A DNA stretch of 43,743 nt from Gemmatimonadales bacterium (lineage in GTDB: Bacteria; Gemmatimonadota; Gemmatimonadetes; Gemmatimonadales; GWC2-71-9): NCBI GenBank assembly GCA_030601605.1, contig JAUVTI010000002.1:1-43743 (forward strand). The letters are read 5' to 3'. The notes beneath the pieces were generated by a model. The model searched no databases. It was not told the origin of the DNA and worked only from the letters and a program-made list of their open reading frames with translations. The translations under genes were made by a program, and so were the position numbers. Positions 7,549 to 24,567 of the stretch are shown here, piece by piece (the stretch's first letter is position 1; the number at the start of each line of letters is the position of its first letter).

Positions 7549-9107
7549 CCCTCCTCGGCGGGACCACGGGCCGGGTTCTGACCCGGCCCGTGCTCGCCCT
7601 GGCCGCGTTGGCTGCGGCCGCGGGCCTTGCCCTGGCAGCGGTGCGCGGCGTGAGCGGCCCGGCGCGGGGGGCGTTTGCCGAACCCAACCCGGCGTGGGTG
7701 GCCCCAGCCGAGTCGATGGCGGGATCGGTGCGGCACCTCCATCAGGCGGAAGCCGCGGAGCTGCTCAGGCCGGACACCGTGTTCCCCGAGCGGGACGTCC
7801 GGTTGCTGTGGTTCGACGGACGCGCCGCATCTCCGGTCGAGGGCCGGGACGCGGTTGTCCTGGACGGGGCCGGTGGCATCGTACGGTTCGACACGCGGCT
7901 CATACCTCATAGGGTGAACCTGCGCCTCGAGGGCCGCGTGCCGGCCAGCGTGGCGGCCGCGACCGGCGGTGGCGCGTGGGTCGTAGACGGAGAGGGTCAG
8001 GTGCTGCGCACCGGCCCGGACGGAGGCATCGAGCAGACGGTGGCCGGGCCGTTCGATTACACGGTCGTGGTCGCCGACCCGCTGGGCGGAGCCTGGTTGG
8101 TCCGCTCTACCGAATTCTTTTCCTACAGACTGGCGCGTGGTGACGAGCCGCTGCTCGTACATGTCGATGAAGCGGGTGGCGATGCCACGGCTACCGCGTC
8201 GATTCTGCTGCCCGAGCACGTGCTCCTGGCCGAGCTGGCCAATGCAGGGCACGTGGCGGTCGGACCCGATGCTGTCTACTTCGCTCCCTTCATTCGGGAC
8301 GAAGTGATCGCACTTTCACGTGGCGGTGACACGCTGTGGGTGGCACACCGCGGGTTGGTACAGGCGCGGCCCGAGCCGCGCTTCGAAATCGGCCCCGACG
8401 GGCCGGTCATCGACTATGCGCCGGTCAACCTCGGCCTCTCGCTTGGACCTGACGGACTGCTCTACGTGCTGAGCGTGCCGGGATTCACGACCATGGAAAG
8501 CCGCGTGGATGTCTACGATCCAGCCACGGGTGTGCTGGAGCGGACCGCACGGCTGCCTACACCGCTGCCCACCGTGGCCCTGGACGAAACCGGCCGCCTC
8601 TATCTACTCGACTCGTTCAGGTTGCTGACCGGAGTGGCGCCGGCAGAGCGGGAGGCCTTCGCCGCCTTCGAGCTGGAGGTCCTGGACAGCGATGATCGGA
8701 TGGTCCTCGCCGATGTCGAAGGCAAGGTGGCCCTGGTGAACTTCTGGGCCAGCTGGTGTGCGCCGTGCCGCGTGGAGATGCCCGCACTCGACAGCCTGCA
8801 GCGGTCGATCGTGCACCCCGACTTCGTGTTCTTCACGATGAATGAGGATGTGGACGCGGGCCAAGCTCGGGCGTTCATCGAGGAACGCGGCTTCACCTTT
8901 CCGGTGCTCCTGGGCCGCGGCAAGCTGCAGCGGCGGTACCACTACATGGGCCTGCCGTTCACCGTGCTGCTGGATCGCGAGGGACGCGTGGTGCAGCGCT
9001 GGATCGGCTTCGCCGGCGGTGATCAGATTGCGGGAATAAAGGCCGTCATTCAGGCCGAGCTCCTGCGGGAGGGTTCGGGGGGAGCGATGGAGCACATGGG
9101 CCACTGA
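7545..9107 (+). CDS. Membrane-anchored protein with a beta-propeller-like central region and a C-terminal TlpA/ResA-type thioredoxin domain
   Basis: N-terminal anchor VLALAALAAAAGLALAAV. Repeated propeller-like segments (GPDGLLYVLSVPG, ETGRLYLLDS). C-terminal redoxin signature VALVNFWASWCAPCRVEMPAL...GLPFTVLLDREGRVV. Confidence 0.8.
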   Translation: MTLLGGTTGRVLTRPVLALAALAAAAGLALAAVRGVSGPARGAFAEPNPAWVAPAESMAGSVRHLHQAEAAELLRPDTVFPERDVRLLWFDGRAASPVEGRDAVVLDGAGGIVRFDTRLIPHRVNLRLEGRVPASVAAATGGGAWVVDGEGQVLRTGPDGGIEQTVAGPFDYTVVVADPLGGAWLVRSTEFFSYRLARGDEPLLVHVDEAGGDATATASILLPEHVLLAELANAGHVAVGPDAVYFAPFIRDEVIALSRGGDTLWVAHRGLVQARPEPRFEIGPDGPVIDYAPVNLGLSLGPDGLLYVLSVPGFTTMESRVDVYDPATGVLERTARLPTPLPTVALDETGRLYLLDSFRLLTGVAPAEREAFAAFELEVLDSDDRMVLADVEGKVALVNFWASWCAPCRVEMPALDSLQRSIVHPDFVFFTMNEDVDAGQARAFIEERGFTFPVLLGRGKLQRRYHYMGLPFTVLLDREGRVVQRWIGFAGGDQIAGIKAVIQAELLREGSGGAMEHMGH

Positions 9108-17192: not shown

Positions 17193-19289
17193 GTGCGGGT
17201 ATATACAGGAGATGCGATCCGGAACGTGGCTGTCGTGGGCCACGGCGCGAGCGGGAAGACCAGCCTTGTAGATGCACTCGCGTTCGTGGCAGGAAGCAGC
17301 ACACGACACGGAAGGGTAGAAGACGGAACTGCGCTCACCGACTACACCCCAGACGAAATCGACCGGCAGTACTCCATCAGCCTCGCCCTCGCCCACGCTG
17401 AGTGGAACAAGGTCAAGATCAACCTCATTGACACCCCTGGTTACCTCGATTTCGTCGGGGACGCCATGGCTGGGATCTACGCCGCGGACGCGGCGTTGCT
17501 GGTGGTGAGTGCGGCGGCGGGAGTCGAGGTCGGCACCGAGAAGGTGTGGGACTTCGCCGAGCAGCGGGGAATCCCCCGGCTCTTCTTCATGTCGCTCCTG
17601 GACAAGGAGCACGCAGACTTCGAGAAGGTCTATCGGGACATCAAGGAGCACCTGACGTCCAAGGTCGTCCCCATCGAGATCCCGGTGGGTGAGGGTCCCG
17701 ACTTCCACGGGATCATCAATCTGTTCTCGAAGAAGTGCCATATGTACAAGAAGGGCACCACCAAGGGCGCATACGAGGAAGTGGACATCCCACCCGAGTA
17801 CGAGGGGCGCTTCGAGACCTACTTCCAGGAGATGATGGAGACCATCGCCACGACGAGCGACGATCTCCTGGAGCGCTACCTGGGCGGCGAGGAGATCTCT
17901 CGTGACGAGGCCATCGCCGCGATGAAGCAGGGCGTGGCCGCGGGCGAGATCTGCCCGCTGCTGTGCGGATCGGGACACCTCACCTACGGGACCCGGGCGC
18001 TGCTCACGAAGCTCGTCGAGCTGGTGCCTGCTCCGACCGAGCACCCGCCCGCGGTCGGCGAGGTGTGGGGCAATGCCGAGCCCGTCGAGCTCGAGCCGTC
18101 GGACGACACTCCGTTCGTGGCGCAGGTCTTCAAGACCGTATCGGAGCCGCACGTCGGCGACGTGACATTCTTCCGGGTCCACTCGGGCAGCGTCTCGAAC
18201 GGGACCGAAGTCTACAACGCGCCGCGCAGCTCCTCGGAGAAGCTCAACCATCTCTCGATCGCGCAGGGGAAGGACCGCAGCGAAGTGCCGATGCTGCACG
18301 TGGGCGACATCGGGGTGGTGGCGAAGCTCAAGGACACGCACACCAACGACACCCTGTCCACGCAGGGCCGGCAGGTGGTGCTACCCAAGATCCCGTTCCC
18401 GGAGCCGCTCACGGTACTCTCGGTGCAGGTCAAGCAGCGCGGCGAGGAGGACAAGCTCTCCACCGGACTGCAGAAACTCCATGAGGAGGATCCCACTTTC
18501 CAGCACGAGTACAACGCGGAGCTGTCACAGACGTTGATCAGCGGGCGGGGCGAGCGGCACCTCGAGATCATCGTGGGGCGGCTCGCGCGGAAGTTCGGAG
18601 TGCATGCCGAACTCGGAAAGCCGCGGGTCGCCTACCGCGAGACGTTCAAGAAGAAGGGCGAGGGTCAGGGCCGCCACCGGAAGCAGACCGGCGGGCGCGG
18701 GCAGTTCGGCGACTGCTGGATCCGTATCTCACCGCTGCCGCGCGGTGAGGGATACGAGTTCGACAACAAGATCAAGGGCGGTGTGATTCCCGGCAAGTAC
18801 ATCCCGGCGGTGAACAAGGGGATTCAGGAGGCCGCCGCGCGTGGAGTGATTGCGGGATTCCCGGTGGTCGACTTCAAGGCGGAGTGCTACGACGGGTCGT
18901 ATCACGACGTCGACTCGAGCGAGCAGGCGTTCAAGATGGCCGGCATCCTGGCCTTCAGGAACGTGGCGAAGAGCGCCAAGCCGATTCTGCTGGAGCCGAT
19001 CCTCGAGGTAGAAGTGTGGGCGCCCGACGAGAACCTCGGCGAGGTGATGGGCGACCTGTCATCCCGACGCGGGCAGATCCTGGGAAGCGAGCCGGACAAG
19101 CGGCTCACCAAGGTGAAGGCCTACGTGCCCGAGTCGGAGATGTACCGCTACTCGACGCAGCTTCACTCGATGACGCACGGACGTGGCACGTTCCACTGGG
19201 AGTTCTCCAGCTACCAGCCCGTGCCGCCCGAGGCGGCGGAGAAGGTGCGCGAGGAGCGCGAGAAGGAAAAGGAGGAGGAAAAGAAGTAG
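17193..19289 (+). CDS. Elongation factor G paralogue (EF-G-2-like translational GTPase) with a Glu/Lys-rich C-terminal tail
   Basis: GTG at 17193 is preceded by AAGGAGGTG. G1 motif VVGHGASGKT, G2 region TDYTPDE, G3 motif DTPGYLDF. Domain IV/V signatures GRHRKQTGGRGQFGD and YHDVDSSEQAFKMA. The tail reads EKVREEREKEKEEEKK. The upstream 168 aa of the track ORF is shadow overlapping the SDR gene. Confidence 0.85.
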   Translation: MRVYTGDAIRNVAVVGHGASGKTSLVDALAFVAGSSTRHGRVEDGTALTDYTPDEIDRQYSISLALAHAEWNKVKINLIDTPGYLDFVGDAMAGIYAADAALLVVSAAAGVEVGTEKVWDFAEQRGIPRLFFMSLLDKEHADFEKVYRDIKEHLTSKVVPIEIPVGEGPDFHGIINLFSKKCHMYKKGTTKGAYEEVDIPPEYEGRFETYFQEMMETIATTSDDLLERYLGGEEISRDEAIAAMKQGVAAGEICPLLCGSGHLTYGTRALLTKLVELVPAPTEHPPAVGEVWGNAEPVELEPSDDTPFVAQVFKTVSEPHVGDVTFFRVHSGSVSNGTEVYNAPRSSSEKLNHLSIAQGKDRSEVPMLHVGDIGVVAKLKDTHTNDTLSTQGRQVVLPKIPFPEPLTVLSVQVKQRGEEDKLSTGLQKLHEEDPTFQHEYNAELSQTLISGRGERHLEIIVGRLARKFGVHAELGKPRVAYRETFKKKGEGQGRHRKQTGGRGQFGDCWIRISPLPRGEGYEFDNKIKGGVIPGKYIPAVNKGIQEAAARGVIAGFPVVDFKAECYDGSYHDVDSSEQAFKMAGILAFRNVAKSAKPILLEPILEVEVWAPDENLGEVMGDLSSRRGQILGSEPDKRLTKVKAYVPESEMYRYSTQLHSMTHGRGTFHWEFSSYQPVPPEAAEKVREEREKEKEEEKK

Positions 19290-19322
19290 GCCGGCGCCAG
19301 GCCGGGCCGGCCTTTGGACAGC

Positions 19323-19348
19323 GGGCCTGGGGGCATCCCCCTAGGCCC
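19323..19348. terminator. GC-rich hairpin between the convergent EF-G-like and kamA genes (possible bidirectional terminator)
   Basis: GGGCCTGGGGG-CAT-CCCCCTAGGCCC (one bulged T) spans the kamA stop codon. A second hairpin, AGGCCGG...CCGGCCT followed by TT, lies at 19288-19313. Neither has a strong U-tract. Confidence 0.4.
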
Positions 19349-20531
19349 GCTTCTTCTTTGTGGTGCGCTTGCCGCCGTTGCGCGAGCGCTTGGGGCGCGC
19401 CGGCCGGCTCGCGGAGTCCAACGTCGGCAACATTCCATACTCCGGCTCGTGTACGCCCACGGCTGCCAGTGTACCTTTGCGCGGCTGAGGCCACACATAG
19501 CGCTCACCGCGGTAATTGCGCAGCACGACTTCGTCCTCGGTGATCTCCTCGACGTACTGCGGAAGCAGGGGCACCTTGCCGCCGCCGCCGGGCGCGTCGA
19601 TGGCGAAGTGGGGCACGGCGAGGCCGCTGGTCCATCCACGCAGGCCGTCAATGATCTCCAGGCCCTTCTCGACGTTGGTCTTGAAGTGCTCCACCCCCGC
19701 CACGTTGTCGCACATATAGAGGTAATAGGGCCGGACGCGAGCGGCGATGAGCTTCCGCATCAGCTCTCGCATGATCTCGACGTCGTCGTTGACGCCCTCG
19801 AGCAGCACCGTCTGACAGCCGAGCGGCACGCCGGCGTCCGCCAGCATGCCCAGCGCCTCGACCGCGGCGGGTGTGAGCTCGGCCGGGTGATTGAAGTGCG
19901 TGTTGATGTAGAGCGGGTGGTGCTTCTTGAGCACCTTGCACAGCTGGGGAGTGATCCGCTCCGGCAGTTGAGACGGGATCCGACTCCCGATCCGGATGAT
20001 CTCCAGGTGCTGGATCTTGCGGAGCCTGCCCAGGATCAGATCGAGCCGCCGGTCCGAGAGCAGCAATGGGTCGCCGCCGGAGAGGATGACGTCCTGAATC
20101 TCCTCGTGCTCCTCCAGGTAGCGGAAAGCGCTCTCCAGCTCGGACATCTTGATCTTGTCGGGATCTCCGACCTTCCTGCGTCGCGTGCAGAACCGGCAGT
20201 AGGCGGCGCACACGGGGCTGACCAGGAAGAGCGCCCGATTCGGGTAGCGGTGCGTGATGTTGGGCACCGGGCTGTCGGCCTCCTCGTTGAGGCTGTCGAG
20301 CACCCCATCCACTACCTCGAGCTCCTGCAGGTCGGGCACGCACTGCTTCCAGATCCGATCGCCGGGCTCTTCGATGAGGTCGAGCATCGCCGGTGAGATC
20401 CGCAGCTCGAAGTTGTCGATGGCCTCCTGCAGCCGTTCCGGCTCGGGGAAGTGCTCCGGTCCGAACCTGTCGACGAGCTGCTTCACGGAGCGCACGGTGC
20501 GCTCGTGGAGGAGCTTTTGCCATTCAGCCAT
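19341..20531 (-). CDS. kamA: KamA-family radical SAM/PLP amino acid 2,3-aminomutase (lysine 2,3-aminomutase-like) with a basic C-terminal tail
   Basis: ATG at 20531 gives MAEWQKLLHERTV. Radical SAM cluster CAAYCRFC; SGGDPLL; and the PLP-lysine motif IDAPGGGGK. The Asp residues in MCD and IDAPG match my memory of the lysine epsilon-amine contacts in clostridial LAM. The tail reads PKRSRNGGKRTTKKKRA. Confidence 0.85.
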   Translation of the reverse strand: MAEWQKLLHERTVRSVKQLVDRFGPEHFPEPERLQEAIDNFELRISPAMLDLIEEPGDRIWKQCVPDLQELEVVDGVLDSLNEEADSPVPNITHRYPNRALFLVSPVCAAYCRFCTRRRKVGDPDKIKMSELESAFRYLEEHEEIQDVILSGGDPLLLSDRRLDLILGRLRKIQHLEIIRIGSRIPSQLPERITPQLCKVLKKHHPLYINTHFNHPAELTPAAVEALGMLADAGVPLGCQTVLLEGVNDDVEIMRELMRKLIAARVRPYYLYMCDNVAGVEHFKTNVEKGLEIIDGLRGWTSGLAVPHFAIDAPGGGGKVPLLPQYVEEITEDEVVLRNYRGERYVWPQPRKGTLAAVGVHEPEYGMLPTLDSASRPARPKRSRNGGKRTTKKKRA

Positions 20532-21045
20532 AGGGCGCTGTCTCCGCTGTGGGAGGAGCCAATTGCTTGGCAAAGACGATCAGGTCGTCTGCCGGAGCGT
20601 AATACTCCGGGATGTGCGCGGCGCGGCCGTAGCGCAGCGCCTCGTAGAAGGCGCGCGTCGGGCCGTAGTCGGCGCGGGACGACGTCTCGACCACGACCAG
20701 GCGACCGCCGCGGTCCCGAATCGCATCCTCGGTCGCCGCCATCAGACTCTGGCCCACACCCAGCCGCTGTGCCGCCGGATCGACCACGATCCAGTACAGG
20801 TCCCACGTGTGAACGGTGCAGGGGGTGGGCCCGTAGCAGGTGTATCCCACGAGGCGGTCGTCGTCGTAGGCCCCCAGCGCGTGGTAGTCCACTCCGGGCT
20901 GAGCGACCGCGTCGTCGAACACCTCCAGCGCCACGTCCACCTCGTCCGGACGGAACACTCCGGTGGCCTCGACCATCTTGGCCACCCGGGTCCGGTCGGC
21001 GGCGCGCGGCGCGCGCAGCGTGACAGTGGAAGCGCGCGCGCTCAT
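20524..21045 (-). CDS. GNAT-family N-acetyltransferase
   Basis: ATG at 21045 gives MSARASTVTLRAP. Acetyl-CoA motif WIVVDPAAQRLGVGQSLM...FYEALRY. The start overlaps the upstream stop (ATGA at 21042-21045), and the stop overlaps the kamA start by 8 nt. Confidence 0.75.
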   Translation of the reverse strand: MSARASTVTLRAPRAADRTRVAKMVEATGVFRPDEVDVALEVFDDAVAQPGVDYHALGAYDDDRLVGYTCYGPTPCTVHTWDLYWIVVDPAAQRLGVGQSLMAATEDAIRDRGGRLVVVETSSRADYGPTRAFYEALRYGRAAHIPEYYAPADDLIVFAKQLAPPTAETAPYG

Positions 21046-22055
21046 GCGACCTGATCCCCTGCGCTCCCAGCCATGACCGGGCTGGCCGGCGGCTCCTCTG
21101 CCTCGGCGAGCGCCACTTCCACGATGCGCGACACCAGCTGCTCGTATGACCATCCATACGCGCGGGACATGTTCACCAGACCCGCGTCGCTCGTGATGTC
21201 GGGACTCGGATTGACCTCGAGGATCCAGGGCCGGCCCTGGGCGTCCACCCGCAGGTCCACGCGTCCGTAGCCGCAACCCTCCACGGCCCTCCACGCCGCC
21301 CGGGACACCTCCACGATGCGCTTGGCCAGCGGCTGATCGACCTGGGCGGGGCACACCGGCTGCGTGCCGGAGTACTCCGGGCTCTCTGGGGTCCATTTGG
21401 CGTCGAACGACACGATGCGCCACGCGTCCTTGGGCATGCGCCCGAAATCGATCTCGGAGAGCGGCAGCACAGTATCGCCCACGAACGCCACGGCGATCTC
21501 GCGGCCCGCGATGTACTGCTGCACGATGACGCTGCCGTAGTCATCGGCGTGACACGCCACCCGCTCCACCAATTGCTCCCGAGTCGTGACGATCGACGAC
21601 TGCTCGATGCCGACGCTCGCGTCCTCCTCGGCCGGTTTCACGATGGCCGGCAGCGGAAAGTCCTCCGGCACCGGCTCGTGGTCCGGAACGTGCCAACGTG
21701 GAATCGGGAGGCCCGCCGCCTGCAGCACGGCATTGAGCAGCGGCTTGCGATGGCAGACGGTCATCATCCATGCCGACCCGCCCGTGTACGGTATCCCGGC
21801 CAACTCTACGGCCGACGCGACCTTGTACTCCCACTGGCTGGTGCCGCCGACTCCCTCGCACAGGTTGAACACGAGGTCCACGCCGCTGCGGATGCGGTCG
21901 AACCACTCGAGGTTCCTGTGCACCGGCACTTTCGCGACCTCGTGACCGGCGGCCTGCAAGGCGGCGCTGACCTCGCGCACCGGCTCGAGAACCGACTGGA
22001 CGTCCTCGGGACTCCAGTCGTCCGCTCCGCCGTCGTACAGCACGACGATTCTCAC
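21042..22055 (-). CDS. ATP-grasp ligase, D-alanine--D-alanine ligase family (paralogue B)
   Basis: GTG at 22055 overlaps the upstream stop (GTGA). Sequence VRIVVLYDGG...DLVFNLCEGVGG...AIVKPAEEDASVGI...VIVQQYIAGREIAV...GYGRVDLRVDAQGRPWILEVNPSPDI has the Ddl-type ATP-grasp layout. Confidence 0.8.
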   Translation of the reverse strand: MRIVVLYDGGADDWSPEDVQSVLEPVREVSAALQAAGHEVAKVPVHRNLEWFDRIRSGVDLVFNLCEGVGGTSQWEYKVASAVELAGIPYTGGSAWMMTVCHRKPLLNAVLQAAGLPIPRWHVPDHEPVPEDFPLPAIVKPAEEDASVGIEQSSIVTTREQLVERVACHADDYGSVIVQQYIAGREIAVAFVGDTVLPLSEIDFGRMPKDAWRIVSFDAKWTPESPEYSGTQPVCPAQVDQPLAKRIVEVSRAAWRAVEGCGYGRVDLRVDAQGRPWILEVNPSPDITSDAGLVNMSRAYGWSYEQLVSRIVEVALAEAEEPPASPVMAGSAGDQVA

Positions 22056-23113
22056 TGGAGCTCGCTCCCCGTGGCGCGCCGCCACGCGATGCGGGTTACG
22101 CCCTGAATCAGCTCGTCGTAGCTCATCCCGAGCGCGCTGGCTGCCATGGGGAGGCAGCTGTGCGCCCCCGGATCGGGCATGATACCGGGTAGGGGATTCA
22201 CCTCCAGCACTTGTGGCTTGCCGTCGGCGTCGAGGCGGAGATCGACCCGCGCCCAGTCGCGGCACCCCAGAGCGCGATACGCGCCGAGCGCGGCATCGCG
22301 CAGGGCCGCCGCCAGCTCCTCGGAGATCCGTGCCGGACACTCGAGGATGTCGAACTCGGTGTCGGGCTGGTCCCACAGCCACTTTGCCTCGTACCCCATG
22401 ATGGGGAGCGATCCTTCCGGCAGCGTGTGGAACTTGTAGCGGATGAGCGGCAGCGTGGCCGCCTCCTTGCCGTGGCCGAGCACCGCGGCGGTGAACTCGT
22501 CGCCCGGGAGGAACGACTCGGCCAGGACTGGCTGGCGGTACGTCGCGAGCAAATGCCGGGCCCGCTCCTGCGCCTCGGCAGGCGACGTCACGTGGCTCGC
22601 TTCCGCTATTCCTTTAGAGGAGCCCTCCCAGATCGGCTTCAGGAACAGCGGATACGTGGTCGCGCCGTTCAGTCGCTCCAGGTCTGCGTCCGACTCCACC
22701 AGCACCGCAGGCGCGGTGGGCACGCCACGCTGGACGAAGACCTCCTTGGCGCGGCCCTTGTGGAGCGCGAGCGCCAGCGAGAGCGGGTCGCTGCCGAGGT
22801 AGGGAACTTCGAGAAACTCCGCGATGGCCGGCACGTGCGATTCGCGATTCGGCCCGCTCATGCCCTCGGCCATGTTGAAGAGGAAATCGACTTTCGCGTC
22901 GCGCAGGCGGGTCGGGAAGTCGTCGATGGCCTCGAGGTAGACGACGTCTCCGAAGACACGCAGGGCTTTCCCCACCGCCTCGATCGTTTCCGGATCGTCC
23001 CACTCGACGTATTCGTCGATTGGTGCGGACGGCTCGGGGGAGGTTCGACCACCGGCACCACCACTCCACGTGGCGTCGCTTGGCCGTTGATTGTACGCGA
23101 GCCCTATGCGCAT
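22052..23113 (-). CDS. ATP-grasp ligase, D-alanine--D-alanine ligase family (paralogue A)
   Basis: ATG at 23113 is preceded by GGAG. Sequence MRIGLAYNQRPS...DFLFNMAEGMSGPNRE...LFLKPIWEGSSKGI...ESFLPGDEFTAAV...DWARVDLRLDADGKPQVLEVNPLPGI is clearly paralogous to the next gene. Confidence 0.8.
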   Translation of the reverse strand: MRIGLAYNQRPSDATWSGGAGGRTSPEPSAPIDEYVEWDDPETIEAVGKALRVFGDVVYLEAIDDFPTRLRDAKVDFLFNMAEGMSGPNRESHVPAIAEFLEVPYLGSDPLSLALALHKGRAKEVFVQRGVPTAPAVLVESDADLERLNGATTYPLFLKPIWEGSSKGIAEASHVTSPAEAQERARHLLATYRQPVLAESFLPGDEFTAAVLGHGKEAATLPLIRYKFHTLPEGSLPIMGYEAKWLWDQPDTEFDILECPARISEELAAALRDAALGAYRALGCRDWARVDLRLDADGKPQVLEVNPLPGIMPDPGAHSCLPMAASALGMSYDELIQGVTRIAWRRATGSELQ

Positions 23114-23144
23114 TGAACTCCGAACGAACTCGTTGTTGGACAAC

Positions 23145-23173
23145 ACGATACGAAATGCCGTTGAGATATGCAA
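23145..23173 (-). promoter_or_regulatory. Candidate sigma70-type promoter of the ATP-grasp/GNAT/kamA operon, with an A-rich upstream (UP-like) tract
   Basis: The minus strand reads TTGCAT (23173-23168), a 17-nt spacer, then TATCGT (23150-23145). It is preceded by GAAAAAAGTGAAAAAAGAG and sits about 32 nt upstream of the ATG at 23113. This is the only AT-rich patch I noticed in the window. Confidence 0.3.
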
Positions 23174-23275
23174 TACTCTTTTTTCACTTTTTTCGAACTT
23201 GGGGAGTTCGGCACGACACGATGTGTCGCGGGTCACACGCGTGAGAGTGTCGCGAGCGGTCGGGCGCGCGATTTT

Positions 23276-23776
23276 TTACTCGGTAGCGTCCTCACGGCGG
23301 TGGTAGAGCCGAAAGCTGAATCCGTAGTGGTGGCGCTCGTCGGATTCGTGGCGCACGTCCTCGGCCAGCTGCCACTCCTCCAGGTCGAACTCCGGGAAGT
23401 GGGTGTCGCCCTCCACCGCGGTGTGGACCACGGTCAGGTAGATGCGGTCGGCTCGAGGCAGGGCGAGGCGGTAGATCTCGGCGCCGCCGGCCACGAAGAC
23501 CTCGTCCTCTCCCGCAGCGAGGCCGAGCGCGTCGTCGAGGCTCGACACGACCTCGGCGCCGTCGTACGTGAGGCCCGGATCGCGGCTGATGACGACGTTG
23601 CGGCGCTCCACGAGCGGCCGGCCCATCGAGTCATAGGTCTTCCGCCCCATGATCACCGTGTGGCCGATCGTGAGCTCCTTGAAGTGCTTCATGTCGGAGG
23701 GCAGACGCCAGGGCAGGGCGTCGTCGCGCCCGATCACGCGGTTCTCCGCCATGGCGGCGATGAGGGAGACGATCAA
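23276..23776 (-). CDS. folA: Dihydrofolate reductase
   Basis: [49 protein letters not shown] aligns with the E. coli FolA N-terminus. The start is TTG at 23776, overlapping the thyA stop (TTGA). Confidence 0.9.
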
Positions 23777-24567
23777 ACCGCGACCTTTCCGGGGATGTGG
23801 GGGTGGGGGTCGTAACCCTCGAGCGTGAAGTCCTCGTATGCGAAGCCGAACAGCGAGGACACGTCGGGGTTGAGACGCAGGCTTGGCAGGGCGCGCGGCT
23901 CCCTGCTCAACTGGAGCCTGGCCTGCTCCAGATGGTTGCTGTAGAGGTGTGCGTCACCGAAGGTGTGGACGAACTCACCGAGTCCCAGGCCGGTGACTTG
24001 GGCCACCATCATGGTGAGCAGCGAGTAGGAGGCGATGTTGAAGGGCACGCCGAGGAAGGTGTCAGCGCTTCGCTGGTAGAGCTGGCACGAGAGCCTCCCG
24101 TCAGCCACGTAGAACTGGAACAGGACGTGACATGGGGGCAGGGCCATGCGCGACAACTCACCGACGTTCCAGGCGCACACCATCATGCGACGGGAGTCGG
24201 GATCGTCGCGGATCAAGTCCACGAGACGGCTGATCTGGTCCACCTGTCCCCCGTCCGGCGTCGGCCAGGAGCGCCACTGGGCTCCGTAGATCGGCCCGAG
24301 GTTGCCGTCCTCATCGGCCCACTCGTCCCAGATCCTCACTCCGTGTTCGTTGAGGTATCGAACGTTGGTGTCGCCCTTCAGGAACCACAGTAGCTCGTAG
24401 GCGATCGACTTGAGGTGCAGCTTCTTCGTCGTGAGCAGCGGGAAGCCGGCATTCAGGTCGAACCGCATCTGGTAGCCGAACACGCTGAGCGTGCCGGTGC
24501 CGGTACGGTCCCGCTTCCGGGCGCCGTTGTCGAGGATGTGCTGCAGGAGGTCGAGATACTCTCGCAT
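23773..24567 (-). CDS. thyA: Thymidylate synthase (ThyA type)
   Basis: [38 protein letters not shown], catalytic Cys in [29 protein letters not shown], and a 264-aa length typical of ThyA. Confidence 0.95.

What the first reader, a model, noticed from the sequence alone, without database searches (positions are those of the whole stretch)
19341..23113. Translationally coupled four-gene operon: two Ddl-like ATP-grasp ligases + GNAT + KamA-type 2,3-aminomutase, a candidate uncharacterised beta-lysine-peptide pathway
Seen in the sequence: four minus-strand genes are chained by start/stop overlaps. These are GTGA at 22052-22055, ATGA at 21042-21045, and an 8-nt overlap at 20524-20531. They sit behind the only AT-rich promoter-like island I noticed in the window. 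The last gene is a radical SAM/PLP aminomutase (CAAYCRFC, IDAPGGGGK). It retains both Asp residues (MCD, IDAPG) that, as I recall, contact the lysine epsilon-ammonium in clostridial lysine 2,3-aminomutase, so beta-lysine (or another basic beta-amino acid) is the likely product.

Established knowledge offers three partial precedents. AblA/AblB (aminomutase + acetyltransferase) make the osmolyte N-epsilon-acetyl-beta-lysine. Ngg (GNAT + ATP-grasp) makes the acetylated dipeptide osmolyte NAGGN. EpmB/EpmA beta-lysylate EF-P. None of these combines an aminomutase with two paralogous carboxylate-amine ligases and a small (173-aa) GNAT.

Inference: the operon builds an N-acetylated di- or tripeptide-like (or oligo-beta-lysine) small molecule. 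Alternatively it attaches beta-lysine to a carboxylate on a protein or cell-wall acceptor. I do not know of a characterised system with this architecture.
Basis: partly seen in the sequence, partly recalled or inferred. Interest (0 to 1): 0.8.

Follow-up and report, generated by a model that had tools for sequence, protein, structure and literature searches.

The report
Uncharacterised beta-lysine ligase operon
Four overlapping genes in a Gemmatimonadota genome (a lysine 2,3-aminomutase, two enzymes resembling D-alanine-D-alanine ligase, and a small acetyltransferase) form a module that recurs across bacteria and archaea, often as fused genes, and probably builds an acetylated beta-lysine peptide whose identity is unknown.

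Summary
Four minus-strand genes (grasp1 23113-22052, grasp2 22055-21042, GNAT 21045-20524, KamA 20531-19341) are chained by GTGA, ATGA and ATGGCTGA overlaps. They sit behind the only strongly AT-rich stretch of the window.

Family assignments hold. Both ligases keep every ATP-grasp catalytic residue but lack the residues that make Ddl specific. The aminomutase is LAM/AblA-like, not EpmB-like, and keeps both lysine-binding Asp residues.

Among Gemmatimonadota-type loci, 105 of 130 carry the block complete and in order. Another 24 are cut by contig ends, and one is an exception.

In Thermoplasmatota, Woesearchaeota, Methanocellales, Deltaproteobacteria, Spirochaetales and Clostridia the same parts appear fused. 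The fusions seen are KamA-grasp1, grasp2-KamA, grasp2-GNAT and GNAT-KamA. One operon encloses an MFS transporter.

I found no curated family model, defence model or paper that assigns a product.

Most likely the aminomutase makes beta-lysine, the two ligases form two amide bonds around it, and the GNAT acetylates a free amine. The product would be a small solute or exported metabolite. Its identity and role are inferred, not shown.

The parts
23114..23251 (-). AT-rich upstream region with a promoter-like site. It contains an A-tract (23193-23179), TTGCAT (23173-23168), a 17-nt spacer, TATCGT (23150-23145), the palindrome GTTG-TC-CAAC (23144-23135), and the Shine-Dalgarno GGAG (23121-23118).
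   Evidence: This is the lowest GC in the window: 38.8% per 80 nt against a mean of 67.8%. TATTGCAT, TATCGTG and the A-tract are conserved in an alignment of 15 orthologous upstream regions. The strict sigma-70 scan found no site, because the -35 hexamer matches only 3 of 6 positions. There is no Rfam match.
22052..23113 (-). grasp1: a 353-aa Ddl-like ATP-grasp ligase. It has a disordered N-terminal insert (residues 13-34) and the motif E-W-D-D-P-E-T-I.
   Evidence: Pfam Dala_Dala_lig_C at 3.4e-30. NCBIfam Ddl models score 163 bits against a cutoff of 243. The AlphaFold model (pLDDT 84, pTM 0.86) matches Ddl structures best, with TM about 0.8. Catalytic residues are kept, but DdlB H63 is replaced by E, Y216 by W and L282 by C. 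This is the ligase type found fused to the C-terminus of KamA in other lineages.
21042..22055 (-). grasp2: a 337-aa second Ddl-like ATP-grasp ligase with a GTG start, 30% identical to grasp1.
   Evidence: Pfam Dala_Dala_lig_C at 1.2e-29. NCBIfam Ddl models score 147 bits against a cutoff of 243. BLASTP against grasp1 gives 30% identity at 9e-33. Catalytic residues are kept, but S150 is replaced by A, H63 by E, Y216 by W and L282 by G. Orthologues are fused to a GNAT (L053, L143) or to the N-terminus of KamA (L058).
20524..21045 (-). A 173-aa GNAT-family N-acetyltransferase.
   Evidence: Pfam Acetyltransf_1 at 6.8e-12. No NCBIfam model is passed; the best is RimI at 38 bits against a cutoff of 86. 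PDB 2R7H is an orthologue at 3.6e-34. It is a structural-genomics entry named 'putative D-alanine N-acetyltransferase', and the search output gives no source organism. A 173-aa orthologue (37% identity) lies in the Clostridia-MAG cluster L058. The same GNAT type is fused to KamA in P0279.
19341..20531 (-). A 396-aa KamA-family radical SAM/PLP 2,3-aminomutase. The cluster cysteines are C108, C112 and C115. D275 and D312 are the lysine-binding Asp equivalents, and K319 is the PLP lysine. It has a Lys/Arg-rich C-terminal tail.
   Evidence: Pfam Radical_SAM plus LAM_C. NCBIfam scores: AblA 434.6 (cutoff 525.4), Glu-aminomutase 381.7, Arg-aminomutase 320.5, EpmB 222.7. Only the general KamA model TIGR00238 is passed. 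The alignment to 2A5H is at 9.5e-110. None of 119 orthologues has a cysteine after the PLP lysine, and all have basic tails.
19320..19351 (.). A GC-rich 14-bp hairpin that overlaps the KamA stop codon and lies between the convergent KamA and EF-G-like genes.
   Evidence: Found by the terminator scan. The T-run is on the + strand, so it looks like the terminator of the EF-G-like gene. Its role for the operon transcript is inferred only.

Best explanation
This is a four-enzyme pathway for a small molecule.

1. The KamA-type enzyme converts L-lysine to beta-lysine.
2. The grasp1 ligase, which is fused directly to KamA in many other lineages, uses ATP to join beta-lysine to a partner through an amide bond.
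3. The grasp2 ligase adds a second amide bond, either a third residue or another beta-lysine.
4. The GNAT acetylates a remaining free amine and so removes a positive charge.

The product would be an N-acetylated beta-lysine-containing di- or tripeptide, or a short oligomer. It would be kept in the cytoplasm as a protective or compatible solute, or exported.

Shown here: the genes, their overlaps, their families, intact catalytic residues, conserved co-occurrence, and the fusions.

Inferred: lysine as the substrate, the order of steps, the partners joined, the acetylated position, and the physiological role.
For: Genes and coupling:
- The start/stop overlaps are in the sequence. The same -4/-4/-8 nt spacings are the commonest across relatives.

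Conservation:
- All 49 genome loci found with grasp1 motifs are Gemmatimonadota. Every one whose contig reaches far enough has the four genes in order.
- A search started from the GNAT instead gave 563 metagenomic relatives. The best 80 show the same block.
- Overall, 105 of 130 loci are complete, 24 are cut by contig ends, and one is an exception.
- The block survives when its flanks change. A soil group lacks thyA-folA upstream, and L001 has thyX there instead.

Fusions in other phyla:
- More than 100 KamA-Ddl-like fusion proteins occur in Thermoplasmatota, Woesearchaeota, Nanoarchaeota, Methanocellales, Spirochaetales, Deltaproteobacteria and Clostridia.
- KamA-grasp1 followed by grasp2-GNAT puts all four domains into two genes (L053, L143).
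- A Clostridia MAG has grasp2-KamA next to a grasp1 gene and an orthologous 173-aa GNAT (L058).
- P0279 fuses the window-type GNAT to KamA.

Chemistry:
- KamA keeps the CxxxCxxC motif, the PLP lysine and both Asp residues that bind the lysine epsilon-ammonium in 2A5H.
- AblA/LAM is the best-scoring model for the window protein and for six fused KamA domains.
- Both ligases keep the equivalents of DdlB K97, K144, E148, K215, R255, D257, E270 and N272, so both should be active. H63 is replaced by an acidic residue in all 22 sequences compared (Glu in 21, Asp in one). That would suit a cationic substrate (the last point is inference).

Small molecule rather than protein target:
- An MFS transporter sits inside one operon (L142).
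- A deacetylase-GNAT fusion follows the ligases in L141.
- A peptidase S51 gene follows a fusion in L140.
- Three unrelated GNAT subfamilies have been recruited to the ligases, so acetylation is a recurring step.
Against: - No product, transcript or enzyme assay exists for any member.
- The KamA falls below the AblA equivalog cutoff (434.6 against 525.4), so lysine specificity is not certified.
- The GNAT is missing from some clusters (L051, L055). One Spirochaetales fusion stands alone (L057). The four-part scheme is therefore not universal.
- Nothing identifies the partner acids or amines.
- Within Gemmatimonadota much of the surrounding region is also syntenic, so order conservation there partly reflects shared ancestry.
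- Evidence for an osmolyte role is thin. It rests on MscL and ion-exchanger genes upstream in one Woesearchaeota locus and on analogy with AblAB and NAGGN.
- Taxon names come from MAG records and may include binning errors.
Confidence: 0.55

Rival explanations
1. The system modifies a macromolecule. Beta-lysine, or a short beta-lysine peptide, is ligated by the ATP-grasp enzymes to a carboxylate on a protein (C-terminus or Glu/Asp side chain, as RimK or LysX do) or on a cell-envelope polymer. The GNAT then caps it.
For: ATP-grasp enzymes such as RimK, LysX and tubulin-tyrosine ligase act on proteins (established knowledge). grasp2 gives weak TTL and YheCD-type hits. The KamA orthologues carry a conserved Lys/Arg-rich tail that could dock to a macromolecule. 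A SET-domain gene sits in the L058 cluster. EpmA/EpmB is a precedent for beta-lysine on a protein.
Against: - Both ligases are Ddl-type by sequence and fold, not RimK-type. All characterised Ddl-type enzymes join small molecules.
- No candidate acceptor gene is conserved next to the module in any of the 10 distant contexts read.
- An MFS transporter inside L142 points to a diffusible product.
- The module occurs in archaea without peptidoglycan.
Confidence: 0.15
2. The pathway is the same, but the aminomutase acts on another amino acid (ornithine, arginine, glutamate or a D-amino acid). The product would then be a peptide of a different beta-amino acid.
For: The KamA passes no equivalog model. 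Glutamate- and arginine-aminomutase models still score 382 and 320 bits. In the 50%-identity library the clade is set apart: one full-length representative at 74% identity, with the next full-length ones at 56% or below.
Against: Both Asp residues that bind the lysine epsilon-ammonium in 2A5H are kept in the window protein and in every fused KamA sequence I read. From my own recollection, not checked here, glutamate 2,3-aminomutase replaces these Asp residues with Lys and Asn. The AblA/LAM model scores best for all eight further cluster-linked or nearest KamA sequences tested. The shortfall against the cutoff coincides with the missing C-terminal ~55 model positions, since the match ends near position 360 of 417.
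Confidence: 0.12
3. The two ligases polymerise beta-lysine, alone or alternating with another residue, into a polycationic oligomer or polymer. It would be comparable to cyanophycin, epsilon-poly-lysine or the beta-lysine chain of streptothricins. The GNAT caps it or detoxifies it.
For: Two or three paralogous ligases occur per cluster (L051 has three). A peptidase S51 gene, the cyanophycinase/dipeptidase E family, follows one fusion. A deacetylase-GNAT fusion occurs in L141. From established knowledge, GNATs of about 170-190 aa protect streptothricin producers by acetylating its beta-lysine.
Against: No characterised Ddl-type ligase is iterative. The peptidase S51 link was seen once. No PADLOC or antibiotic-resistance model matches. 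The cluster sits among housekeeping genes and is inherited vertically across the Gemmatimonadota loci examined, which is unusual for an antibiotic.
Confidence: 0.1
4. There is no joint pathway. KamA plus the GNAT is an ordinary AblA/AblB-type N-epsilon-acetyl-beta-lysine pair, and the two Ddl-like genes are cell-wall D-Ala-D-Ala ligases that merely lie beside it.
For: Public records name these proteins 'D-alanine--D-alanine ligase' and 'lysine 2,3-aminomutase'.
Against: - Both ligases score far below the Ddl cutoffs (163 and 147 against 243) and have lost Ddl specificity residues: H63 to E, Y216 to W, L282 to C or G.
- They are physically fused to KamA or to a GNAT in many lineages, including archaea without murein.
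- The NCBIfam scan returned no beta-lysine acetyltransferase (AblB) model for the 173-aa GNAT.
Confidence: 0.03

Closest known systems
[quoted passage not shown]
   Same: A LAM-type radical SAM aminomutase is encoded next to a GNAT acetyltransferase. AblA is the best-scoring curated model for the window KamA.
   Different: The KamA is below the AblA cutoff and lacks the C-terminal Zn-Cys region. The 173-aa GNAT matches no AblB model. Two ATP-grasp ligases are added and are the more constant partners.
Ngg/AsnO pathway to N-acetylglutaminylglutamine amide (NAGGN)
   Same: The logic is the same: an N-acetyltransferase and an ATP-grasp peptide-bond former make an acetylated dipeptide solute. The grasp2-GNAT fusions of L053 and L143 recall the bifunctional Ngg.
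   Different: There is no amidotransferase and no aminomutase in NAGGN. The ligases here are Ddl-type, and the domain order of the fusion is reversed relative to my recollection of Ngg, which I did not check.
D-alanine-D-alanine ligases and VanA-type depsipeptide ligases
   Same: Same fold (TM about 0.8) and the same ATP/Mg and acyl-phosphate residues.
   Different: Scores are well below the family cutoffs. Substrate-site residues are changed. grasp1 has a 22-residue disordered insert and an acidic E-(F/W/Y)-D motif. The genetic context has nothing to do with murein.
EpmB/EpmA beta-lysylation of elongation factor P
   Same: A KamA-family enzyme supplies beta-lysine to a dedicated ligase.
   Different: The EpmB model scores lowest of the aminomutase models (222.7 against a cutoff of 369.3). 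The ligases are ATP-grasp enzymes, not lysyl-tRNA-synthetase paralogues. No efp gene is linked.
MysC/MysD in mycosporine-like amino acid synthesis, and L-amino-acid ligases (BacD, TabS, RizA)
   Same: Stand-alone ATP-grasp ligases, one of them Ddl-like (MysD), attach amino acids one after another to a small core in a compact operon (established knowledge).
   Different: There are no core-forming genes such as those for 4-deoxygadusol. Similarity to an L-amino-acid ligase structure is weak (3VOT, 1e-7).
Streptothricin beta-lysine chain with GNAT self-resistance (streptothricin acetyltransferases)
   Same: Beta-lysine from a LAM-type enzyme is amide-linked into a product, and a small GNAT acetylates a beta-lysine amine (established knowledge).
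   Different: Streptothricin uses NRPS-type adenylation enzymes, not ATP-grasp ligases. No streptothricin-type genes are present here.

Membership tests
KamA family radical SAM/PLP aminomutases (TIGR00238) | Score above the family cutoff, a CxxxCxxC cluster motif, and the PLP-binding lysine | tested here: met
   280.7 bits against a cutoff of 199.2. C108/C112/C115 and K319 align with C125/C129/C132 and K337 of 2A5H.
Lysine 2,3-aminomutase AblA/KamA equivalog (TIGR03820) | Score at or above the equivalog cutoff of 525.4 bits | tested here: not met
   434.6 bits. The match covers model positions 18-362 of 417. Six fused relatives score 414-520 bits, also below the cutoff.
Lysine 2,3-aminomutase AblA/KamA equivalog (TIGR03820) | The two Asp residues that bind the lysine epsilon-ammonium (D293 and D330 of 2A5H) | tested here: met
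   D275 (MCD) and D312 (IDAPG) align with them.
Lysine 2,3-aminomutase AblA/KamA equivalog (TIGR03820) | A C-terminal domain with the Zn-binding cysteines (C268 plus a C-terminal Cys triad in the clostridial enzyme; recalled from the 2A5H literature) | tested here: not met
   C268 aligns with Asp. None of 119 orthologues has a cysteine after the PLP lysine.
EpmB (EF-P beta-lysylation) | Score at or above 369.3 bits on TIGR03821, and linkage to epmA/efp | tested here: not met
   222.7 bits. No EpmA-like or efp gene appears in the cluster or in L001.
Glutamate and arginine 2,3-aminomutases | Equivalog cutoffs of 650 and 600 bits | tested here: not met
   381.7 and 320.5 bits.
D-alanine-D-alanine ligase (Ddl) | Score above the NCBIfam subfamily cutoff (243 for NF002378, 245.65 for TIGR01205) | tested here: not met
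   grasp1 scores 163.4 and 128.4; grasp2 scores 146.7 and 128.8.
D-alanine-D-alanine ligase (Ddl) | Substrate-site residues of E. coli DdlB (E15, H63, S150, Y216, S281, L282) | tested here: not met
   H63 to E and Y216 to W in both ligases. L282 to C in grasp1 and G in grasp2. S150 to A and S281 to A in grasp2.
ATP-grasp superfamily (catalytically competent) | ATP- and Mg-binding and acyl-phosphate residues (DdlB K97, K144, E148, K215, R255, D257, E270, N272) and the three-domain fold | tested here: met
   These residues are essentially invariant in 22 grasp1- and grasp2-type sequences. The exceptions are K215 to N in L141f and conservative E270 to D in five sequences. The grasp1 model matches Ddl structures at 1e-26 with TM about 0.8.
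AblB beta-lysine N-acetyltransferase | A match to a curated AblB model | tested here: not met
   The NCBIfam scan of the 173-aa GNAT at E <= 0.01 lists only RimI, PRK03624, AAC(6') and MshD models, all far below their cutoffs.
GNAT superfamily | The acetyl-CoA-binding GNAT fold | tested here: met
   Acetyltransf_1 at 46.1 bits against a cutoff of 20.7. The solved structure 2R7H is an orthologue at 3.6e-34.
Known anti-phage defence systems (PADLOC) | A match of any of the four proteins to a PADLOC model | tested here: not met
   No hits at E <= 0.001.
Single operon (co-transcription) | One transcript covering the four genes | not testable with these tools
   Only indirect support is available: the overlaps, one conserved promoter-like site upstream of grasp1, and no internal promoter-like or terminator-like sites.

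The most novel reading that the evidence does not exclude
The module makes a class of metabolite not yet described: ATP-grasp-built beta-lysine peptides, possibly acetyl-capped oligo-beta-lysines. They would serve as a widespread protective solute or polyamine-like polycation in Gemmatimonadota, DPANN archaea, Thermoplasmatota and several anaerobic bacteria. Acetylation and deacetylation would tune the charge.
Probability: 0.25. Interest if true: 0.8.

Novelty: new variant of a known kind. Interest (0 to 1): 0.68.

Why it matters
Beta-lysine is currently known in three settings: an acetylated osmolyte, a modification of EF-P, and a building block of a few antibiotics. This module would add a fourth, ligase-based route.

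It is not a rarity. It is fixed in a large, mostly uncultured part of the Gemmatimonadota, a phylum prominent in dry and saline soils. It also recurs as gene fusions in DPANN archaea, Thermoplasmatota, a methanogen order and several bacterial phyla.

The proteins are routinely mislabelled as cell-wall D-Ala-D-Ala ligases and plain lysine aminomutases. That can mislead metabolic reconstructions, for example by suggesting murein synthesis in archaea.

The two-gene fused versions are compact constructs for heterologous expression, so the product should be easy to find. The two ligase families would also add new substrate specificities to the Ddl-type ATP-grasp enzymes, which are useful for making beta-peptides.

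Tried and rejected
- Ten full-text literature searches combined aminomutase, KamA, beta-lysine, ATP-grasp, D-alanine ligase, Gemmatimonad*, Desulfovibrio, 2R7H and osmolyte terms. One candidate, the Pelobacter genome paper, describes only an ordinary ablAB pair.
- Rfam found no riboswitch or other RNA family in 18800-23900. This rules out, for example, a lysine riboswitch in the leader.
- PADLOC gave no defence-system match.
- The strict sigma-70 scan found no promoter. The promoter call rests on conservation instead.
- Structure prediction of grasp1 and a PDB fold search returned only Ddl structures. They added nothing on substrate identity.
- The genome scan with grasp1 motifs used narrow patterns (D[FL]LFNMAE, HVPA[IM]AEF) and so found only Gemmatimonadota. 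It says nothing about absence elsewhere. Wider distribution had to come from the KamA representative search and the fusion search.
- I could not inspect the genomic context of the 2R7H protein, because no tool here holds its source genome.
- I considered a link to the convergent EF-G-like gene and rejected it. In the soil group that gene lies 1-5 kb away with other genes between, and it is absent from the distant contexts.
- An automatic count of 118 of 130 loci 'with all four' was inflated by cross-hits between the paralogous ligases. It was replaced by the stricter count.

Full report
**What is in the sequence**

The window is high-GC DNA (about 68%). Its closest database proteins come from Gemmatimonadales metagenome-assembled genomes.

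Between 23113 and 19341 the minus strand carries four ORFs, each of which starts inside the stop of the previous one:
- ATG 23113 to TGA 22052: grasp1, 353 aa.
- GTG 22055 to TGA 21042: grasp2, 337 aa, joined by a GTGA overlap.
- ATG 21045 to TGA 20524: GNAT, 173 aa, joined by an ATGA overlap.
- ATG 20531 to TAG 19341: KamA, 396 aa, joined by an ATGGCTGA overlap.

Near-identical database proteins of the same length support the first and last starts (P0121 and P0001).

Upstream, a 163-nt intergenic region separates the block from a folA-thyA pair on the same strand. This region holds the only strongly AT-rich stretch in 43.7 kb. In 80-nt windows its GC content falls to 38.8%, against a mean of 67.8% (sd 5.2).

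**Families**

Pfam assigns Dala_Dala_lig_C to both ligases, Acetyltransf_1 to the small protein, and Radical_SAM plus LAM_C to the last. NCBIfam refines this.

*The aminomutase.* It passes only the general KamA model. Among the specific models it scores:

| Model | Score (bits) | Cutoff (bits) |
|---|---|---|
| AblA/lysine 2,3-aminomutase | 434.6 | 525.4 |
| Glutamate aminomutase | 381.7 | 650 |
| Arginine aminomutase | 320.5 | 600 |
| EpmB | 222.7 | 369.3 |

Aligned with the clostridial enzyme 2A5H (9.5e-110), it keeps the cluster cysteines, the arginine after them, the PLP lysine, and both Asp residues that hold the lysine epsilon-ammonium (D275 and D312). It lacks the Zn-binding cysteines. 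Instead it ends in a Lys/Arg-rich tail, a feature shared by all 119 orthologues checked.

*The ligases.* They are 30% identical to each other and about 30% identical to E. coli DdlB. They score 163 and 147 bits against a Ddl cutoff of 243. An AlphaFold model of grasp1 (pLDDT 84) matches only Ddl structures.

In an alignment of 22 ligases of both types with DdlB, the ATP, Mg and acyl-phosphate residues are essentially invariant. The Ddl substrate-site residues are not: H63 becomes acidic in every sequence (Glu in 21, Asp in one), Y216 becomes Trp in most, L282 becomes Cys/Arg/Asp in grasp1 or Gly in grasp2, and S150 becomes Ala in grasp2. Both are therefore active ligases that are not D-Ala-D-Ala ligases.

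*The acetyltransferase.* It passes no specific model. It has a solved orthologue, PDB 2R7H, an uncharacterised structural-genomics entry (3.6e-34).

**Conservation within the phylum**

A scan of one genome per species with grasp1 motifs returned 49 loci, all Gemmatimonadota, at 59-92% identity. All 46 whose contig extends far enough carry grasp1-grasp2-GNAT-KamA in that order.

An independent scan of metagenome contigs, started from the GNAT, found 563 relatives. The best 80 show the same block.

A strict count over 130 loci gives 105 complete and in order, 24 cut by contig ends, and one exception (L120, a 1.6-kb contig with only the GNAT). The commonest gene spacings are -4, -4 and -8 nt, so the overlaps are ancestral.

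The flanks are less stable than the block. A soil group lacks thyA-folA upstream, and L001 has thyX in that place.

An alignment of 15 upstream regions shows several conserved elements:
- an A-tract;
- TATTGCAT, a 17-nt spacer, then TATCGT, which reads as a promoter;
- a palindrome just after it.

In several relatives the short leader folds into a hairpin that buries the Shine-Dalgarno sequence and the start codon (z between -2 and -4.3). The window's own leader does not fold this way. No Rfam family matches.

**Beyond the phylum**

In a library clustered at 50% identity, the Gemmatimonadota KamA clade collapses to one full-length representative at 74% identity. The next full-length relatives are at 56% or less.

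Among the 150 nearest representatives, nine to eleven are fused to a Ddl-like domain or a GNAT. Searching with two such fusions returned more than 100 proteins. They come from Thermoplasmatota, Woesearchaeota, Nanoarchaeota, Methanocellales, Spirochaetales, Deltaproteobacteria and Clostridia, and all are named only 'KamA family radical SAM protein'.

The domain fused C-terminally to KamA is of the grasp1 type. It shares the motifs (I/V)G(L)AYN, AE(F/W/Y)D..ETI.A and VDF.FN.AEG.

The contexts read were:

| Locus | Lineage (from MAG record) | Arrangement |
|---|---|---|
| L053, L143 | Not named; nearest named relatives of the fusion are Thermoplasmatota | KamA-grasp1, then grasp2-GNAT |
| L139 | Methanocellales | KamA-grasp1, grasp2, GNAT |
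| L141 | Not named | KamA-grasp1, grasp2, deacetylase-GNAT fusion |
| L142 | Not named | KamA-grasp1, MFS transporter, grasp2, GNAT nearby |
| L051 | Deltaproteobacteria | KamA-grasp1 plus two further ligases, no GNAT |
| L055 | Woesearchaeota | KamA-grasp1 plus grasp2, no GNAT |
| L058 | Clostridia | SET-domain gene, orthologous 173-aa GNAT, grasp1, a Cys-rich gene, grasp2-KamA |
| L140 | Not named | grasp1-KamA, then peptidase S51 |
| L057 | Spirochaetales | Fusion alone |

P0279 joins a window-type GNAT to KamA.

KamA is thus fused, in different lineages, to each of its three partners, and grasp2 is fused to a GNAT. This is classic fusion evidence that the four proteins act in one process. 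The constant core is KamA plus two Ddl-like ligases. Acetyltransferases of at least three unrelated subfamilies have been recruited.

AblA is again the best model for all the fused KamA domains tested, and all fall below its cutoff. The match ends near model position 360 of 417, which is where the fusion partner or the basic tail begins.

**How it most likely works**

Shown: the genes, their coupling, intact catalytic machinery, co-inheritance, and the fusions.

Inferred: KamA makes beta-lysine from lysine, because both Asp residues are kept and LAM is the best model. grasp1, its commonest fusion partner, takes beta-lysine directly. grasp2 and the GNAT, themselves fused in some archaea, carry out the neighbouring steps of a second amide bond and an N-acetylation.

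The universal change of Ddl H63 to an acidic residue, and the acidic E-(F/W/Y)-D motif of grasp1, would suit substrates with an extra ammonium group. This point is speculative.

A diffusible product is favoured by three contexts: the MFS transporter inside one operon, the deacetylase-GNAT fusion, and the peptidase S51 gene. It is also favoured by the absence of any conserved acceptor gene.

A role as a protective solute is suggested only by analogy with AblAB and NAGGN, by the ecology of the carriers, and by ion-homeostasis genes next to one archaeal locus. I give the small-molecule pathway 0.55. The rivals are:
- macromolecule modification, 0.15;
- a different beta-amino acid, 0.12;
- a polymer, 0.10;
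- mere juxtaposition of AblAB with real Ddl genes, 0.03.

**Comparison with known systems and novelty**

The module works like a hybrid of AblA/AblB and the NAGGN synthetase. It is a member of neither. The AblA equivalog cutoff, the AblB model, the Ddl cutoffs, the Ddl substrate residues and the EpmB model were all tested and not met. It does meet the definitions of the KamA family, the ATP-grasp superfamily and the GNAT superfamily.

No NCBIfam model (June 2026 release), PADLOC model or paper in the searchable library assigns a function (and ten literature searches).

I rate it a new variant of a known kind. The enzyme families are familiar, but they are assembled into an undescribed and phylogenetically widespread pathway with an unknown product.

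**Limits**

- There is no transcript, metabolite or enzyme data.
- Taxon names come from MAG records.
- The genomic context of the 2R7H orthologue could not be inspected.
- Within Gemmatimonadota, part of the order conservation reflects shared ancestry. The cross-phylum fusions, not the synteny, carry the main weight of the argument.

Noticed in passing
window 23100-23150 (-); L008, L017, L036 at 7965-8015: In several relatives the short leader of grasp1 folds into a hairpin. AACUCC pairs with the GGAGUU Shine-Dalgarno sequence, and UGCGCA pairs with the AUGCGCA start region (z between -2 and -4.3). The window and L003 lack this fold (z -0.4 and +0.85). It may be a lineage-specific translational control. 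The same GTGTTGCGCAACAC palindrome could instead be a DNA operator.
   Followed up: partly
L001 4463-5224 (same genome as L039), compared with window 23276-24567: The thyA-folA pair that precedes the cluster in the window and in most relatives is replaced at the same position by a thyX (PF02511) gene, and folA is gone. This looks like an in-place swap of the two thymidylate synthase systems.
   Followed up: partly
window 19341-19490 (-), the C-terminus of KamA: The aminomutase ends in a Lys/Arg-rich tail (…RPARPKRSRNGGKRTTKKKRA). The tail is conserved in composition in all 119 orthologues checked, which also lack any cysteine after the PLP lysine. In other lineages the fused ligase domain begins at this position.
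   Followed up: partly
window about 17200-19289 (+): An EF-G-like GTPase gene converges on the KamA gene. The two share a GC-rich hairpin at 19320-19351 that overlaps the KamA stop codon. The EF-G-like gene stays near the cluster across most Gemmatimonadota loci but at variable distance, so I judged it unrelated to the pathway.
   Followed up: partly
L058 147-536 and 2102-2548: The Clostridia-MAG version of the cluster also holds a 129-aa SET-domain protein (a possible amine methyltransferase) and a 148-aa Cys-rich protein of unknown function, between the ligase genes.
   Followed up: no
L141 9587-11872; L142 8238-9563; L140 4495-5196: Three accessory genes were each seen once next to KamA-ligase fusions: a histone-deacetylase-like domain fused to a GNAT, an MFS transporter overlapping both neighbouring genes, and a peptidase S51 (cyanophycinase/dipeptidase E family).
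   Followed up: no
P0279 (920 aa; representative library): This protein joins a window-type GNAT (38% identity, residues 140-300) and a KamA domain (residues 521-860). About 220 unassigned residues lie between them, and 140 lie before the GNAT.
   Followed up: no
L120 (1640 nt): This is the only locus of 130 where the GNAT orthologue (54% identity) is not followed by KamA, although about 1.1 kb of downstream sequence is available. It could be a variant arrangement or a chimeric contig.
   Followed up: no
L074 and L117: These are two unfused four-gene clusters with much lower identities (grasp1 42-46%, KamA 61-64%; GC 63-66%). They may come from a lineage outside the main Gemmatimonadota groups.
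   Followed up: no
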